A stretch of DNA of 64,000 nt from Naegleria gruberi (taxonomy: Eukaryota): the NCBI GenBank assembly GCA_000004985.1, contig GG738882.1. One strand, 5' to 3'. Both the position numbers and the translations under genes were made by a program. This document shows positions 17,402-22,398 of the stretch, in pieces (the first letter of the stretch is position 1; every line of letters begins with the position of its first letter). Below the pieces are notes generated by a model. The model worked only from the letters and a program-made list of their open reading frames with translations, was not told the DNA's origin and ran no database searches.

Positions 17402-18664
17402 TTATTTGAAGAATAAAATTCCATAATCTAGGATCTGCATTTTGTACAAGTCTTTGTAGCTTTGTTGATGTGGAGCTAAAGAAGGATTATAGCCTGTTTG
17501 TCTGTTACTAGCTTTCAGGTTTTGAAGATGACAATATTTAACACCCTCCTTTCCATCAGGATGTTCACCTCCAAACAGTAATCTGTAATGTACATTTTGA
17601 GACCAGGTAGCAAACTTTAACTCGTCACGGTAAAGTTGAACTAGTTCAGTGGCCAGTCTATCATCGTTGAAATTTCTATTGGCACCTTGGTAAAATGTGG
17701 TATTTCTCTTTTGGTGGTATTTTTGTCTGGATGTCTTACTGAAAATATCATAAACACAGGCAAGAGTTAGCACTTGCTTACTGTTTGTGAGCTTGATTAA
17801 TAATTCTACAGAACGTTCCCAATTTTTTCTGTCATATGCATTGTGAGGCTTGTAGTACTGAGATAGACTGTTAACTACTATACACTTGTATGAATTCAAT
17901 TGTTCCAAGTTTTGAAAATTATCCTTTAGGGATTCTCTTTCAGCTGATAAATCTTCATTTTCCATTAATTGCTTTTCTCTCATCATGTTACTCTCGTTGT
18001 GTCTCCTGTGTAGTGCTTCAAAGGCAAGGGCAAGTTGAAAGGAATTGTCAACTCTAAAAATATGAATTCTGCTCAATACTTCCAACACAAATGAATTATA
18101 ACTAATTTCTGATGCATCAAAGATTTCTTCCACAATCATTTCCTCTGATATCGAACTAAAATCAATCATCTCTCCAGATTTTCGTTTCATATCATAGAAG
18201 GCCTTATAAATATTCATTTCTACAATTTCTATAAATCTTGGTTTTTCAAATTTATCATCCAAATCAAAATACAGAACTTGACATCCTTCTCTTGGTTTAG
18301 TCTTTTCATCCCCAGAGAATTGTAGAGTTTTAAAATGTGAAGGCATAGCAATATGACACATGGCAGTATAACAAGTTTGTGTAATACCCTGCCCTTCATT
18401 TCCATACAATTCAACAATAGTTCCTCCCAATTTCATCTCTCCGATCACTTGATCAAACGGTTCAACACCTGTCTGCAGTGCATCAGTTCTTTTTCTCTTG
18501 AAAAAACTTAAAGCATTCTCCGAATAAACCTTATTATCAAGAAATAGAGAATTTGTTTCCTTTGATGTACTCGTTCCGACAATACTATTAATTTGTGAGT
18601 CACATTCCATCTCCGATGAGGAGAAGCCAAACAAGAGACTTTGAAACTCTGGTGCTAGCTGCAT
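17402..18664 (-). CDS. RecA/Rad51-fold paralog-like protein (XRCC2/Rad51-paralog-like) with degenerate Walker A
   Basis: GGTIVELYGNEGQGITQTCYTAMC parallels the Rad51-paralog Walker A region ([22 protein letters not shown]), but the GKT is replaced by GIT. The rest is a hydrophobic core consistent with a RecA fold. Start context aaaaaaATG. Confidence 0.4.
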   Translation of the reverse strand: MQLAPEFQSLLFGFSSSEMECDSQINSIVGTSTSKETNSLFLDNKVYSENALSFFKRKRTDALQTGVEPFDQVIGEMKLGGTIVELYGNEGQGITQTCYTAMCHIAMPSHFKTLQFSGDEKTKPREGCQVLYFDLDDKFEKPRFIEIVEMNIYKAFYDMKRKSGEMIDFSSISEEMIVEEIFDASEISYNSFVLEVLSRIHIFRVDNSFQLALAFEALHRRHNESNMMREKQLMENEDLSAERESLKDNFQNLEQLNSYKCIVVNSLSQYYKPHNAYDRKNWERSVELLIKLTNSKQVLTLACVYDIFSKTSRQKYHQKRNTTFYQGANRNFNDDRLATELVQLYRDELKFATWSQNVHYRLLFGGEHPDGKEGVKYCHLQNLKASNRQTGYNPSLAPHQQSYKDLYKMQILDYGILFFK

Positions 18665-18914
18665 TTTTTTATTTTATTTTTTAATTAAATGTCTATTTTT
18701 AAGTGGAAGAATTTTTCCAGATTATTTTGGAAGCAATCATTTCAAATGAAAATAATTTGACAGTTTTGAATTAGAATTGGAAAACATGAATAACTTTTAC
18801 AATAATCTCTAAACTTTTAAATATGAGATATTTTATAAACGTCTTTTAAGAGATGAATAATAAACTATTTAAACTTGTAGATTGTAATAAGTTTCCAACA
18901 AGCTATTAGAAAAA

Positions 18915-19154
18915 ATGTTAGAAAGTGAAAACAAAGAATGCAAAGCGACAAAGCTTCTCAAGTCTTTGGGTTATTCCTCCCCAAAGAAATTAACTGATAG
19001 AGGCGAAAGAAACACCATAAAAATAACTCTCTTTGAGGCTGAAATTCTTAAAGACCTCAATTCCAAAGAGAAAGTTGTAATTCGAATGGTTGAAAATCTC
19101 GATCCAGAAGTACTAGTAGAGTTCGAAAAGGAATATGAAGCTGCTAAAATATAA
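18915..19154 (+). CDS. Possible 5' exon or remnant: degenerate protein-kinase N-lobe-like 79-aa ORF upstream of the TPR gene
   Basis: Start context gaaaaaATG. LLKSLGYSSPKKL resembles a glycine-loop. IKITLFEAEILKDLN..VVIRMVEN...LVEFEKEYEA is ordered like subdomains II-V (VAIK, alphaC, hinge). It ends in a TAA, and I could not define any splice to the downstream exons. Confidence 0.3.
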   Translation: MLESENKECKATKLLKSLGYSSPKKLTDRGERNTIKITLFEAEILKDLNSKEKVVIRMVENLDPEVLVEFEKEYEAAKI

Positions 19155-19329
19155 ATATAAAGATCAGATCCGTTGGAAGACATGTCTCTTCACTGGATGT
19201 CTCATTTTGCAAGACTAGTTGTTCTAAATCACTGAAATATTTTGGCATTTCAAAAATCAAGTATTTTTCATAAGGTATTACCTTGTTGATTTTTACAATA
19301 TTTGGATGATTAATATCTTTTAATTCAAG

Positions 19330-20819
19330 TTACTTCTCCTCCTGAATTATATAGTGAAACATATGATGTTTGGGAGTTGGGAGCTATTATTTATCAAATG
19401 ATAACTGGTGATTTAACAACCACGTTTCGTCTATTGCAACCTCACCAATTAAGAATGCATTTATATGGAACTGATGAAGAGAATCAAGTTGTAACAGATG
19501 GTTTGTATCAGAAAAGATTGAGGAATAGCTATATGGTCCCATACTTGTGGTCCTGTTTTCAGAATCATGCAAAGAGGATTCCTTCTGTTGCAATTATGGA
19601 GGAAATACTTGCTCAATTTTACTTTTATGTTTCGAATACAAAGAAGATTTTGACAAAGGAAAGAAAGGAAAAACCAAAGGAATTTTTCGTGTTGAACTTT
19701 TTCCAACACTTAGCAACAAACGAGGACAAGTTTGAAGAAATTCTCAAAATGGAATCTAAAGACATGAATAATACAGAGCTATACATTAAGAATGTGTTCA
19801 ACACCATGTTTGGTAATAAGGGAGTTTTCAATGTAAAAGAAGGAGAATCCAGTAATGAGTTGAAGAAATATTCTGTGTACTTTAACAAATTTCAAGGGTT
19901 TTATATGTTATTCAATGAGAAGTTTGACACGGCAAAGACTATCTTCCAAAACGTGTTGAATATTCATGCACATGATTTCACAGCATTTAATAATAAGGCC
20001 TTGGTTGATATGGCTTTTTCCAAGTTGGATGCAAACGGGGAATCAAAGAAATATTTGTCAGATGCCAAATCAGGTTTGATGCAAGCTATCAACAACGATC
20101 CTTTTTATGTTAGTGCACTAGTCAATCTTGCCAATATTTATGAATTCGAAGGAGAAACTCATAAAGCGACAGAAAATTACGACAAGGCTTGTAAATATTC
20201 CAGAATAGATCGTCAGAAATTCAATTCCCATCTTAACAGGGCTATTTTCAAAGCGCAGCAATGTTCATTTGATGAAGCACATAGTGATATCAATGAACTA
20301 TTGGCCATATTTACTCAATCTCCAATCATTCATGCCACCAAACAATTAATTAAGTGGATGCAATTGAGAAGTATTCCAACTTCCGCATCTGATTTTGTCA
20401 AGTTGGAAAATGAAATTTTGGAAGAATTTATGCATTTAGAGAAAGTTAAATACCTTCAAAATAATATTCCTTTCCAATTATATAAGGTGCTTTTCTATTT
20501 CCACAAACAGATACTCAAGAAGGATTCTCTCAAGCTATTGAAAGATATATTCCCTAATAAGGTTGAACCAAAAGTTCTATTCTGTTCCACCATTGTAAAT
20601 AGATTCTCTCTGCAATACTTTGAAAATGGAGAAATTCAAACCATTCCTCTTTTCAGAAATGAAATTTTGGATCTACTCAATGAATTGGAATTGTGTCCTC
20701 TTGAAAAAAGACCTGAATTTTCAGTTAATGATTTAGTTCAACTTTCGAGAGGTGATTATCCTTCCCTCACTCTCAAAATCAAAAATCTTACTAATCTTCT
20801 GTTAGGTATCAATTATTGA
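19330..20819 (+). CDS. TPR-repeat protein whose 5' part encodes protein-kinase C-lobe remnants (APE, subdomain IX); the upstream exon structure is unresolved
   Basis: Just upstream of the ORF at 19377, the in-frame translation reads TSPPELYSETYDVWELGAIIYQMITG (APE motif and subdomain IX). Further upstream, in another frame, 19169..19260 encodes HVSSLDVSFCKTSCSKSLKYFGISKIK (HRD-like and DFG-like). The rest, from 19400 to 20819, is TPR-like (...ALVNLANIYEFEGETHKATENYDKA...). Confidence 0.5.
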
Positions 20820-21078
20820 TTGAAGTTTCAAATTAACTATTCTCAACTAATCAAAAAGACTTTCCATTAAGACACATGTTTTCACAATCGATCATTCCCA
20901 GTATGCAACAAAAACCTTCTCAAAAACAAATTAAAAACAAGAATATTTTAAACCTTTGGATTTCGCTCTTCGAATGTAGCACCTCCTCATAGCCCGACGT
21001 TGTCAGAAACTCACATCCGATTCCTTGCATTTTCACATCATAAGCAGCAACAATTCAACATTATTTAGTATTAAAAAA

Positions 21079-22398
21079 ATGTCTGTTGTTATCACTGGTG
21101 GATGTGGTTGTATTGCTCAACATTTGGTGAGGGAATTAATCATCAATAATGAGAAAATGGCACTTGGTGTCGAGAATATAATTTTGTTGGATGTGAGACC
21201 GAATTGGAGACCTTTCTGGCATGATTATAAAGAACTGGAGGGATCACAAGGGGATCATGATCGGTTGAGACCCTATCCAACACTAGAACAGGAAAAGATT
21301 GTGAAATTTTACTCTGTTGATTTGAGTAATAAGGAAAAATTGGAAGAACTTTTTGAGAATGAATTGATTCCTAATTTCCCAAATTTGAGTACTATATTCC
21401 ATGTCTTGTCAACAACAGTGTTGTGGTCTCCAACCTTTGATATTTATGATAAGATTAATGTGAAATTGACAGAAACCTTGTTGGATATTAGTTACAAGTA
21501 TGATTCGATTAAGAATTTTATTTATACTAGTTCTGGATCGATATTTTGGAGAGAATTCAATGAAAAGAACAAACGATTGGAGCTCAGAGAGGAAGAATAC
21601 CAAACTGTTGAAAGAGATGAGAAGGGTTATGTGAAAAATGTTAAACTTCACTTTTCAACTCCACCATCAAGTATGGATTACAGCTATGTTCGTAGTAAAC
21701 AATTGGCGAATGAGATGGTTGTTGAGAGAACATTCAGAGACAAGTCCAAGCATCTGAATACTGTTTCTCTGGCCTTGTGTATGTCAATTTATGGTGAATC
21801 TGAAATTCAAATCTCTAATAGTGTGACACAACCTTACATTTTGAACAAATCAGGAGGAAAGGGACATAATTTATATTCTGGAAATGCAGCCTATGCTCAC
21901 GTAATGGTATTCAAGGCAATGCAAGATCAGGAAAAGGCAAATAGAATGAGAGGATTGACCTACATGATTTATGACAACAACGTTGGTCAATTACACAATG
22001 AAGCAGTTAGAGGAATAATGAAATGCGTAACTGGAGATGCAGAAACCTATAGCGAGGATAGATCTGAAGCAGTTTCTTTAAAAATTCTCTATGCTATCTG
22101 GTACTATTTCTGTGTAGTCAATTTCTTCGTCTATTTATTAACCTTACTCGTTCCACAAGCCAAAAAGTGGTACTTTATGCCATTCATTACTGCATTTATC
22201 ATTGATATTACTTATTTGGATAGATATATGGTGTGTAAGACATTGAATGCAAAGAATGATTTTGGATATGAAGAAAAATACACCACCCAAGACAATTACT
22301 CTCAAATAGCTCTACACTTTAAAATATTGGAAAAACAAGGTAAAATGAAACTCCACAGATTGCCACCAGTTAACAAATCTGATAAGAAATCATTATAA
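21079..22398 (+). CDS. NSDHL: 3-beta-hydroxysteroid dehydrogenase / sterol-4-alpha-carboxylate 3-dehydrogenase family (NSDHL/ERG26-like) with C-terminal membrane segments
   Basis: Rossmann N-terminus MSVVITGGCGCIAQHLV. Catalytic YxxxK in DYSYVRSKQLANEMV. C-terminal hydrophobic helices ILYAIWYYFCVVNFFVYLLTLLV. I take the first in-frame ATG at 21079; the ORF track starts at 21025 on a non-ATG codon. Confidence 0.7.
   Translation: MSVVITGGCGCIAQHLVRELIINNEKMALGVENIILLDVRPNWRPFWHDYKELEGSQGDHDRLRPYPTLEQEKIVKFYSVDLSNKEKLEELFENELIPNFPNLSTIFHVLSTTVLWSPTFDIYDKINVKLTETLLDISYKYDSIKNFIYTSSGSIFWREFNEKNKRLELREEEYQTVERDEKGYVKNVKLHFSTPPSSMDYSYVRSKQLANEMVVERTFRDKSKHLNTVSLALCMSIYGESEIQISNSVTQPYILNKSGGKGHNLYSGNAAYAHVMVFKAMQDQEKANRMRGLTYMIYDNNVGQLHNEAVRGIMKCVTGDAETYSEDRSEAVSLKILYAIWYYFCVVNFFVYLLTLLVPQAKKWYFMPFITAFIIDITYLDRYMVCKTLNAKNDFGYEEKYTTQDNYSQIALHFKILEKQGKMKLHRLPPVNKSDKKSL

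What the first reader, a model, noticed from the sequence alone, without database searches (positions are those of the whole stretch)
18915..20819. Protein-kinase remnants spread over three frames and fused to a TPR protein (pseudokinase or decaying gene)
An 79-aa ORF with a good start context looks like a kinase N-lobe (glycine-loop-like LGYSSPKKL, VAIK-like IKITLF, hinge-like LVEFEKEYEA) and ends in TAA. Fourteen nt later, in another frame, comes HVSSLDVSFCKTSCSKSLKYFGISKIK (HRD to HVS, DFG to YFG), followed by GTATTT. Then in the TPR ORF's frame comes PPELYSETYDVWELGAIIYQM (APE and subdomain IX). The αD-αE segment is missing. I could not find canonical splice sites that join these pieces in phase. 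The locus is therefore either a pseudokinase-TPR gene with noncanonical splicing, a sequencing frameshift, or a kinase domain decaying in front of a retained TPR module.
Basis: seen in the sequence. Interest (0 to 1): 0.6.

Follow-up and report, generated by a model that had tools for sequence, protein, structure and literature searches.

The report
Kinase-TPR gene broken by inversion-deletion
This stretch of the Naegleria gruberi reference genome is a broken copy of a species-specific kinase-plus-TPR gene: 166 bases of the kinase domain are flipped and the next 201 bases are lost, which makes it an ordinary null allele (or possibly a cloning or assembly artefact), not a spliced or frameshifted pseudokinase.

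Summary
The window is Naegleria gruberi NEG-M. Both flanking ORFs are exact matches to NAEGRDRAFT_70092 and NAEGRDRAFT_70094.

Two intact copies of this gene exist. One is XP_002668061.1, on an unplaced 1,617-bp contig of the same genome project. The other is a syntenic 4,550-bp metagenome contig. Against these copies the window shows:
- residues 1-79 on the + strand (18915-19151);
- residues 81-134 (end of alpha-C, beta4, beta5, hinge, alpha-D) encoded on the minus strand (19157-19322, 99.4% nucleotide identity), so this piece is inverted in place;
- 201 bp missing (about residues 135-202: alpha-E, HRD, DFE, activation loop);
- the C-lobe and the TPR region resuming at 19325, in the same frame as the N-lobe;
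- junction fillers of 6 nt and 2 nt.

The intact gene has no intron across the kinase domain, so splicing is not needed to explain the locus. The intact protein itself looks catalytically impaired: no glycine loop, VAIK Lys replaced by Arg, DFG replaced by DFE.

The most likely reading is a heterozygous inversion-deletion null allele. A cloning or assembly artefact is not excluded. Interest is low.

The parts
18915..19154 (+). 79-aa ORF. It is the first 79 residues (degenerate N-lobe through most of alpha-C) of the kinase-TPR gene. The stop at 19152-19154 was created by the rearrangement junction.
   Evidence: tblastn of P0001 residues 1-79 gives 97.5% identity, E = 1.8e-42. blastn of L001 1911-2322 against window 18739-19150 gives 99.8%.
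19151..19156 (.). Junction 1 filler, ATAAAT. It has no counterpart in the intact sequence and is a near-copy of the adjacent ATAAAG.
   Evidence: Junction sequences compared; alignment limits.
19157..19322 (-). Inverted 166-bp piece of the kinase domain. It encodes residues 81-134 (KDINHPNIVKINKVIPYEKYLIFEMPKYFSDLEQLVLQNETSSEETCLPTDLIF: end of alpha-C, beta4, beta5, hinge, alpha-D) on the minus strand.
   Evidence: blastn of L001 2325-2490 against window 19322-19157, minus strand, 99.4%, E = 4e-81. tblastn E = 3.9e-29. Minus-strand ORF 19144-19260. Secondary-structure assignment from the CDK2 alignment.
19323..19324 (.). Junction 2: a 2-nt filler (AT) at the site of a 201-bp deletion. The lost sequence is L001 2491-2691, about residues 135-202 (alpha-E, HRD catalytic loop, DFE, most of the activation loop).
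   Evidence: The deleted piece is found nowhere else in the 64-kb window.
19325..19625 (+). Kinase C-lobe remainder (PPE as the APE equivalent, DVWELG, KRIP), in the same frame as the 79-aa ORF. The first in-frame ATG is at 19398 (MITGD...).
   Evidence: tblastn of P0001 residues 203-371 gives 99.4%, E = 1.4e-110. Frame-1 translation. Pfam Pkinase E = 0.08 on this stretch only.
19626..20819 (+). C-terminal all-helical region of the 480-aa ORF (19377-20819). TPR-like repeats lie at about 19893-20405; the best single Pfam TPR hit is at about 20082-20204. The last ~135 residues have no relatives outside this species.
   Evidence: Pfam TPR_12, TPR_17 and TPR_2 at E = 1e-4 to 6e-4, all below gathering scores. 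Exhaustive phmmer found only self hits plus generic TPR proteins, with best stretches mostly within query residues ~70-280, and the top hits were confirmed as TPR proteins. The AF2 single-sequence model is all-helical but has pLDDT 38.9.

Best explanation
Shown: the locus is a disabled copy of an intronless gene so far found only in Naegleria gruberi. In its intact form the gene encodes an N-terminal protein-kinase domain followed by a helical C-terminal region with TPR-like repeats. Relative to intact copies, one complex rearrangement flipped 166 bp of the kinase domain in place and removed the adjacent 201 bp. It left 6-nt and 2-nt fillers at the two junctions, for a net loss of 195 bp.

Inferred: this kind of scar is left by end-joining repair of clustered double-strand breaks, or by replication template switching.

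Consequences read from the sequence: translation from the original ATG stops after 79 residues. The catalytic loop, the metal-binding Asp and the activation loop are gone. The TPR ORF is left without its own upstream start; at best, a 473-aa TPR-only protein could start at ATG 19398.

Inferred: this is one real haplotype of the heterozygous diploid strain NEG-M, and the intact haplotype survives as the unplaced 1,617-bp contig that encodes XP_002668061.1. The gene appears dispensable. The intact protein already lacks key catalytic residues (likely a pseudokinase), and a second lineage carries an independent 4-bp frameshift in the TPR half.
For: - Identity of the window: the flanking ORFs are exact matches to NAEGRDRAFT_70092 and NAEGRDRAFT_70094, which lie on a 381,539-bp scaffold.
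- Intact copies: P0001 (XP_002668061.1, partial, on a 1,617-bp contig) and P0002 (ENA contig L001) both pass Pfam Pkinase. L001 also carries the 70092 orthologue upstream and aligns downstream to window 21172, so the intact form sits at this same locus.
- Rearrangement: the block structure is +18739-19150, -19322-19157, 201 bp absent, +19325-21172.
- The intact gene is a continuous ORF, so no intron is involved.
- There are no assembly gaps in the window.
- P0001 differs from the window allele at 5 of 303 comparable residues, including sites outside the rearrangement. It therefore looks like a distinct haplotype, not the same sequence without an artefact.
- Naegleria is described as mainly a heterozygous diploid (PMC9928731).
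- Relaxed constraint or dispensability: pN/pS is about 0.28 here and 0.05 in the neighbouring gene, though with few sites (Fisher p = 0.18). L001 has a 4-bp deletion that creates a stop after residue 465.
- Pseudokinase features of the intact protein are shown.
Against: - I could not see reads or the DNA of the 1,617-bp contig, so the coexistence of both structures in NEG-M is inferred from a protein record.
- A rearranged plasmid clone that was taken into the consensus would give the same sequence.
- The rearranged form was not found in any other sample. The JGI metagenome scan found nothing, and the only wild contig has the intact arrangement.
- The 6-nt inverted microhomology at the ends of the inverted piece (AAAGAT/ATCTTT) is short enough to be chance.
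- The small contig could in principle come from a paralogous locus and not from the allele.
Confidence: 0.6

Rival explanations
1. Cloning or assembly artefact. NEG-M really carries only the intact gene, and the inversion-deletion arose in an E. coli shotgun clone (or a chimeric read) that was taken into the consensus of the main scaffold. The correct reads were then left over as the unplaced 1,617-bp contig.
For: An intact version from the same genome project sits on a tiny leftover contig that spans just the rearranged region plus about 500 bp on each side. The rearranged form has been seen nowhere else. The inverted piece carries one substitution private to the window, I103F, which could be a low-coverage error.
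Against: The small contig differs from the scaffold at four further residues (N6T, V68A, S122A, M246I). That is expected for a second haplotype and not for the same molecule. An assembler cannot create an in-place inversion without reads that cross both junctions. There is no gap or N run nearby. Short fillers at both junctions are typical of in-vivo repair, although they could also arise in E. coli.
Confidence: 0.3
2. A functional pseudokinase-TPR gene. The pieces would be joined by noncanonical or cryptic splicing into one mRNA that encodes a degenerate kinase domain fused to the TPR region.
For: The N-lobe ORF and the TPR ORF are in the same frame. There are 47 GT...AG combinations that would join them without a stop.
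Against: The intact gene has no intron here. The middle piece is antisense and cannot contribute kinase sequence. Any in-frame join lacks the whole catalytic core, which is deleted from the DNA. The 47 combinations are what a 33% GC sequence yields by chance, and none has supporting evidence. The concatenated pieces give Pfam Pkinase only E = 0.08.
Confidence: 0.04
3. Domain loss that created a new TPR-only gene. After the rearrangement, the 3' part is transcribed and translated on its own from ATG 19398, giving a 473-aa TPR protein that retains a function. This is compatible with the best explanation and is listed as a separate functional claim.
For: The 480-aa ORF is fully open, while the orthologous region in L001 is frameshifted. 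An in-frame ATG lies 73 nt downstream of the second rearrangement junction.
Against: The divergence is so low (about 1-2%) that an open frame is expected even without selection. There is no promoter or transcript evidence. No annotated product for this ORF was retrieved.
Confidence: 0.15
4. A simple sequencing frameshift, or indels, in an otherwise intact kinase gene.
Against: The two + strand pieces are already in the same frame. The interruption is a strand inversion plus a 201-bp loss.
Confidence: 0.01

Closest known systems
XP_002668061.1 / EFC35317.1, 'predicted protein, partial [Naegleria gruberi]' (P0001), and the ENA metagenome protein P0002 on contig ERZ929261 k127_63475
   Same: They are the same gene. 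Identity over the retained pieces is 97-99%. L001 carries the same neighbour gene. The order of N-lobe, C-lobe and TPR-like region is the same.
   Different: Both have the 166-bp piece in sense orientation and retain the 201-bp catalytic-core piece. P0002's contig has its own 4-bp deletion in the TPR part.
Unitary or allelic pseudogenes made by complex inversion-deletion rearrangements (end-joining or template-switch scars)
   Same: There is an in-place inversion with an adjacent deletion, short fillers at both junctions, at most 6 nt of microhomology, and a disabling effect on the ORF.
   Different: The mechanism is inferred from the scar only. It is unproven whether the event happened in Naegleria or in a cloning host.
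Kinase-then-TPR signalling proteins: plant BSK pseudokinases, mycobacterial PknG, and many bacterial Ser/Thr kinase-TPR proteins (for example P0008)
   Same: The domain order is an N-terminal kinase (in BSK a catalytically impaired one) followed by C-terminal TPR repeats. P0008 has Pkinase at residues 25-280 and TPR repeats after it. The comparison with BSK and PknG rests on my own knowledge of those families.
   Different: No specific sequence relationship was found. The best solved-structure matches of the intact kinase are CDK2, MARK and ABL at E of about 5e-11 to 1e-6. PF25575 (TPR_BSK1_C) does not hit the window ORF. The resemblance is one of architecture only.
Bub1/BubR1 and Mps1 (TPR plus kinase or pseudokinase)
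   Same: They combine a TPR domain with a kinase or pseudokinase domain (from my own knowledge; the lead came).
   Different: The order is opposite (TPR at the N-terminus, kinase at the C-terminus), and no sequence similarity was detected.

Membership tests
Eukaryotic protein kinase domain (Pfam PF00069) | A contiguous domain that scores above the Pfam gathering threshold | tested here: not met
   Window pieces scanned separately match no family. Concatenated, they give E = 0.08 and 12.8 bits against a cut-off of 31.7. The intact allele meets the criterion: P0001 scores 53.8 bits and P0002 53.4 bits.
Catalytically competent protein kinase | Catalytic loop HRD Asp with the downstream Asn, and the DFG Asp | tested here: not met
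   The 201 bp encoding HRDISL[A/S]N and LADFE are absent from the window.
Catalytically competent protein kinase (intact allele) | Gly-rich loop GxGxxG, the VAIK lysine and the DFG glycine | tested here: not met
   There are no glycines at the loop position. R57 sits at the position that aligns with CDK2 K33 and Pfam profile position 30. DFE replaces DFG. HRD and Asn are retained.
Tetratricopeptide repeat (TPR) proteins | 34-residue helix-turn-helix repeats recognised by Pfam TPR models above the gathering score | tested here: inconclusive
   The best hit is TPR_12 at 22.7 bits against 30.1, and only one repeat is recognised. The exhaustive search hits genuine multi-TPR proteins at E = 1.6e-10 and weaker. 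The structure model is all-helical but has pLDDT 38.9.
Pseudogene or null allele of a protein-coding gene | An intact counterpart exists, and a lesion abolishes the original ORF | tested here: met
   Intact counterparts are P0001 and P0002/L001. The inversion-deletion introduces a stop after codon 79.
Pseudogene or null allele of a protein-coding gene | The lesion is present in the organism's DNA (not an artefact) and there is no functional product | not testable with these tools
   This needs reads, PCR or RNA. It was not available here (one search returned no DNA for the small contig).
Programmed invertible DNA switch (site-specific recombinase type) | Inverted repeats that flank the invertible segment, and reversibility | tested here: not met
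   Only a 6-nt inverted match (AAAGAT/ATCTTT) lies at the segment ends in the intact sequence. No flanking inverted repeats are found in the window. The accompanying 201-bp deletion makes the event irreversible.
Plant BSK family (kinase plus TPR_BSK1_C) | A match to the BSK-type TPR domain PF25575, or BSK-like kinase similarity | tested here: not met
   The Pfam scan of the ORF gave no PF25575 hit. The kinase's best PDB relatives are CDK2, MARK and ABL.

The most novel reading that the evidence does not exclude
The reference strain NEG-M is naturally heterozygous for an inversion-deletion null allele of a species-specific pseudokinase-TPR gene, and an independent wild lineage carries a different disabling lesion (a 4-bp deletion) in the TPR half. 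That would catch an orphan signalling gene in the act of being lost, or held as a presence/absence polymorphism, possibly with the TPR half surviving as a separate protein in NEG-M.
Probability: 0.35. Interest if true: 0.3.

Novelty: new member of a known kind. Interest (0 to 1): 0.15.

Why it matters
The value is mainly for genome curation. The N. gruberi reference scaffold carries a scrambled copy of this gene. No gene model covering it was retrieved, and the intact copy is stranded on an unplaced 1.6-kb contig as a 'partial' protein. Kinome counts and orthology tables for Naegleria will therefore misrepresent the gene.

The case is also a caution for motif reading. Antisense translation of a real kinase segment produced convincing-looking 'HRD/DFG remnants'.

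If the allele is real, it is a small documented case of heterozygous structural variation and gene decay in a protist that is thought to be a heterozygous diploid. It would not change any larger question.

Tried and rejected
- Pfam scan of the three reader-defined peptides and of their concatenation: nothing for the N-lobe and 'HVS/YFG' peptides, and E = 0.08 for the C-lobe. This is uninformative without the intact relative.
- Fetching the DNA of the 1,617-bp contig by exact protein look-up: not on record.
- Scan of JGI metagenome contigs for relatives of P0002: 77 pattern matches, none confirmed.
- Word-indexed homology searches with the kinase part and the C-terminal part: only P0001, or nothing. 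The tool also missed the 98%-identical P0006, so its negatives are weak. The exhaustive search is the one I rely on.
- Enumeration of GT...AG introns joining the two + strand ORFs: 47 in-frame, stop-free combinations, none special and all lacking the catalytic core. Splicing rejected.
- AlphaFold2 single-sequence model of the TPR ORF: pLDDT 38.9, so I ran no fold search.
- Bacterial promoter and terminator scan: at background level and irrelevant for a eukaryote.
- Repeat search for flanking inverted repeats: none relevant. Invertible switch rejected.
- tRNA scan: none found.
- Literature: the Fritz-Laylin 2010 genome paper is not held, and no paper mentions PRJEB11402.
- The pN/pS comparison with the neighbouring gene is suggestive but not significant (p = 0.18).

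Full report
**What is in the sequence**

The region is AT-rich (about 33% GC) and gene-dense.
- a 79-aa ORF at 18915-19154;
- a frame-3 peptide ...RHVSSLDVSFCKTSCSKSLKYFGISKIKYFS*;
- PPELYSETYDVWELGAIIYQM, in the frame of the 480-aa ORF 19377-20819.

One search also shows that the first and third pieces lie in the same reading frame, so the pieces are not spread over three frames. On their own, the pieces give almost nothing against Pfam. The N-lobe and 'HVS/YFG' peptides have no hit. The concatenation gives only E = 0.08 to Pkinase, and that match lies over the C-lobe piece. The ORF gives several sub-threshold TPR hits.

**Identity of the locus**

A homology search with the ORF returned one protein, P0001. 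It is 'predicted protein, partial [Naegleria gruberi]' (XP_002668061.1 / EFC35317.1), 371 aa, 99% identical, encoded on a 1,617-bp contig, and it carries a full Pfam kinase domain.

Exact look-ups showed that the two flanking ORFs of the window are NAEGRDRAFT_70092 and NAEGRDRAFT_70094, which lie on a 381,539-bp scaffold. The window is therefore the main N. gruberi NEG-M assembly.

The 90% cluster of P0001 holds a second member, P0002 (465 aa). It comes from a 4,550-bp ENA metagenome contig that also encodes a 420-aa protein one residue different from NAEGRDRAFT_70092. I fetched that contig as L001.

**The real anatomy**

tblastn of P0001 against the window and blastn of L001 against the window agree:

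| Intact copy | Window | Strand | Identity |
|---|---|---|---|
| Residues 1-79; L001 1911-2322 | 18915-19151 (protein); 18739-19150 (DNA) | + | 99.8% (DNA) |
| Residues 81-134 (tblastn block 80-138); L001 2325-2490 | 19322-19157 | minus | 99.4%, E = 4e-81 |
| L001 2491-2691 (201 bp, about residues 135-202) | no counterpart anywhere in the 64 kb | - | - |
| Residues 203 onward; L001 2692-4550 | 19325-21172 | + | 98% |

The junctions read as follows:
- Junction 1: ...GCTGCTAAAAT | ATAAAT | ATAAAGATCAG..., a 6-nt filler that nearly copies the next 6 nt.
- Junction 2: ...ATATCTTTTA | AT | TCAAGTTACT..., a 2-nt filler.

The net change is a loss of 195 nt (65 codons). That is why the N-lobe ORF and the TPR ORF remain in the same frame while being separated by stops.

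In the CDK2 alignment, the inverted piece covers the end of alpha-C, beta4, beta5, the hinge and alpha-D. The deleted piece covers alpha-E, the HRD catalytic loop, DFE and most of the activation loop.

The minus-strand ORF 19144-19260, MIFEMPKYFSDLEQLVLQNETSSEETCLPTDLIF..., is the true coding sense.

**Why splicing and frameshifts are excluded**

In L001 the gene is one uninterrupted ORF from the ATG through the whole kinase domain, so there is no ancestral intron. A frameshift cannot invert a segment.

I enumerated the GT...AG pairs that would join the two + strand ORFs. There are 47 in-frame, stop-free combinations, as expected by chance in AT-rich DNA. Every one would give a protein without a catalytic core, because that DNA is gone.

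No inverted repeats flank the segment. The only match is a 6-nt one, AAAGAT/ATCTTT, which could be chance. Together with the deletion, this rules out a programmed invertible switch.

**Real allele or artefact**

I could not inspect reads, and the DNA of the 1,617-bp contig was not retrievable.

Points in favour of a real second haplotype:
- P0001 differs from the window allele at N6T, V68A, I103F, S122A and M246I. That is 5 of 303 comparable residues, and most of these sites lie outside the rearrangement.
- By length, the small contig spans just the rearranged region plus about 500 bp on each side. This is what a haplotype-collapsing assembler leaves over at a heterozygous structural variant (inference).
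- The window has no gaps.
- Both junctions carry short fillers, which are typical of in-vivo end joining or template switching.
- Naegleria is described as mainly a heterozygous diploid (PMC9928731).

Points in favour of an artefact:
- The rearranged form is seen only in this assembly. The one wild contig is intact, and a JGI metagenome scan found nothing.
- A rearranged shotgun clone could produce the same consensus.

I put the real allele at about 0.6 and the artefact at about 0.3.

**What the gene is**

The intact kinase is very divergent. Its best solved-structure relatives are CDK2, MARK and ABL, at E of about 5e-11 and weaker. No closer relative turned up in the protein collections.

- the beta3 motif is KVVIRMV, with Arg57 where the catalytic Lys should be;
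- there is no glycine-rich loop;
- DFG is DFE;
- HRD and the catalytic-loop Asn are retained.

The intact protein is therefore probably a pseudokinase or a very atypical kinase (inference).

The C-terminal region has no relatives among 1.84 billion representative proteins apart from itself (P0001, and P0006, a fragment from L001) and generic TPR proteins (E of 1.6e-10 and weaker; best stretches mostly within query residues ~70-280). Its single-sequence structure model is all-helical but unreliable (pLDDT 38.9).

The kinase-then-TPR order is common. It is seen in P0008 and, from my own knowledge, in plant BSKs and mycobacterial PknG. No specific relationship to any of these was found.

**Signs of dispensability**

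L001 carries a 4-bp deletion (TGCA, window 20114-20117). It ends its ORF at residue 465, so the TPR half is broken in that lineage while the kinase half is intact. This is the mirror image of the window.

Between the window and L001 the gene has 6 synonymous and 7 nonsynonymous differences (pN/pS about 0.28). The neighbouring gene has 5 and 1 (about 0.05). The counts are too small for significance (Fisher p = 0.18).

P0001 and P0002 differ at 10 of 371 residues. Three of these lie in the 68-residue catalytic-core piece.

**Verdict**

The kinase remnants in front of a TPR ORF are real, but the frames and motif assignments are wrong.

The kinase domain is indeed destroyed, but by an inversion-deletion and not by splicing or frameshifts.

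This is an ordinary null allele, or possibly an artefact, of a lineage-specific gene. It is mainly of value for genome curation. No annotated product for the scaffold copy was retrieved, although two of those searches are demonstrably incomplete. Interest is low.

Noticed in passing
window 18739/18740 (L001 1812-1910): The metagenome contig has 99 bp in the intergenic region between NAEGRDRAFT_70092 and the kinase ATG that the window lacks. This is an indel polymorphism in the shared upstream region.
   Followed up: partly
window 20114-20117 (L001 3481): L001 lacks the palindromic TGCA, which creates a stop after residue 465 of its otherwise intact kinase-TPR gene. It also has one extra G at L001 4149 (window 20786), close to the C-terminus. 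This is an independent disabling lesion in another lineage, unless it is a metagenome assembly error.
   Followed up: partly
window 18915-20819: No annotated protein covering the 480-aa TPR ORF was retrieved from the protein collections, although both neighbours are annotated (NAEGRDRAFT_70092 and NAEGRDRAFT_70094). The locus may be unannotated in the reference, or NAEGRDRAFT_70093 may be a model that these tools did not return.
   Followed up: partly
window 19899-20816 / P0006: The word-indexed homology search failed to return P0006, which is 98% identical over 162 residues and which the exhaustive search did find. Negatives from that tool should therefore not be read as absence.
   Followed up: no
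window 17402-18664 (minus strand): The neighbour NAEGRDRAFT_70092 (420 aa) has only a weak, sub-threshold Rad51-like Pfam hit (E = 0.007). It is highly conserved between the window and L001, with 1 amino-acid difference.
   Followed up: no
window 21079-22398 (+): The neighbour NAEGRDRAFT_70094 is a member of the 3-beta-hydroxysteroid dehydrogenase / NAD-dependent epimerase family (PF01073, E = 1e-20).
   Followed up: no
window 20945 and 21069 (L001 4310-4320 and 4445-4446): The window and L001 differ by 11-bp and 2-bp indels in the 3' intergenic region between the TPR ORF and NAEGRDRAFT_70094.
   Followed up: no
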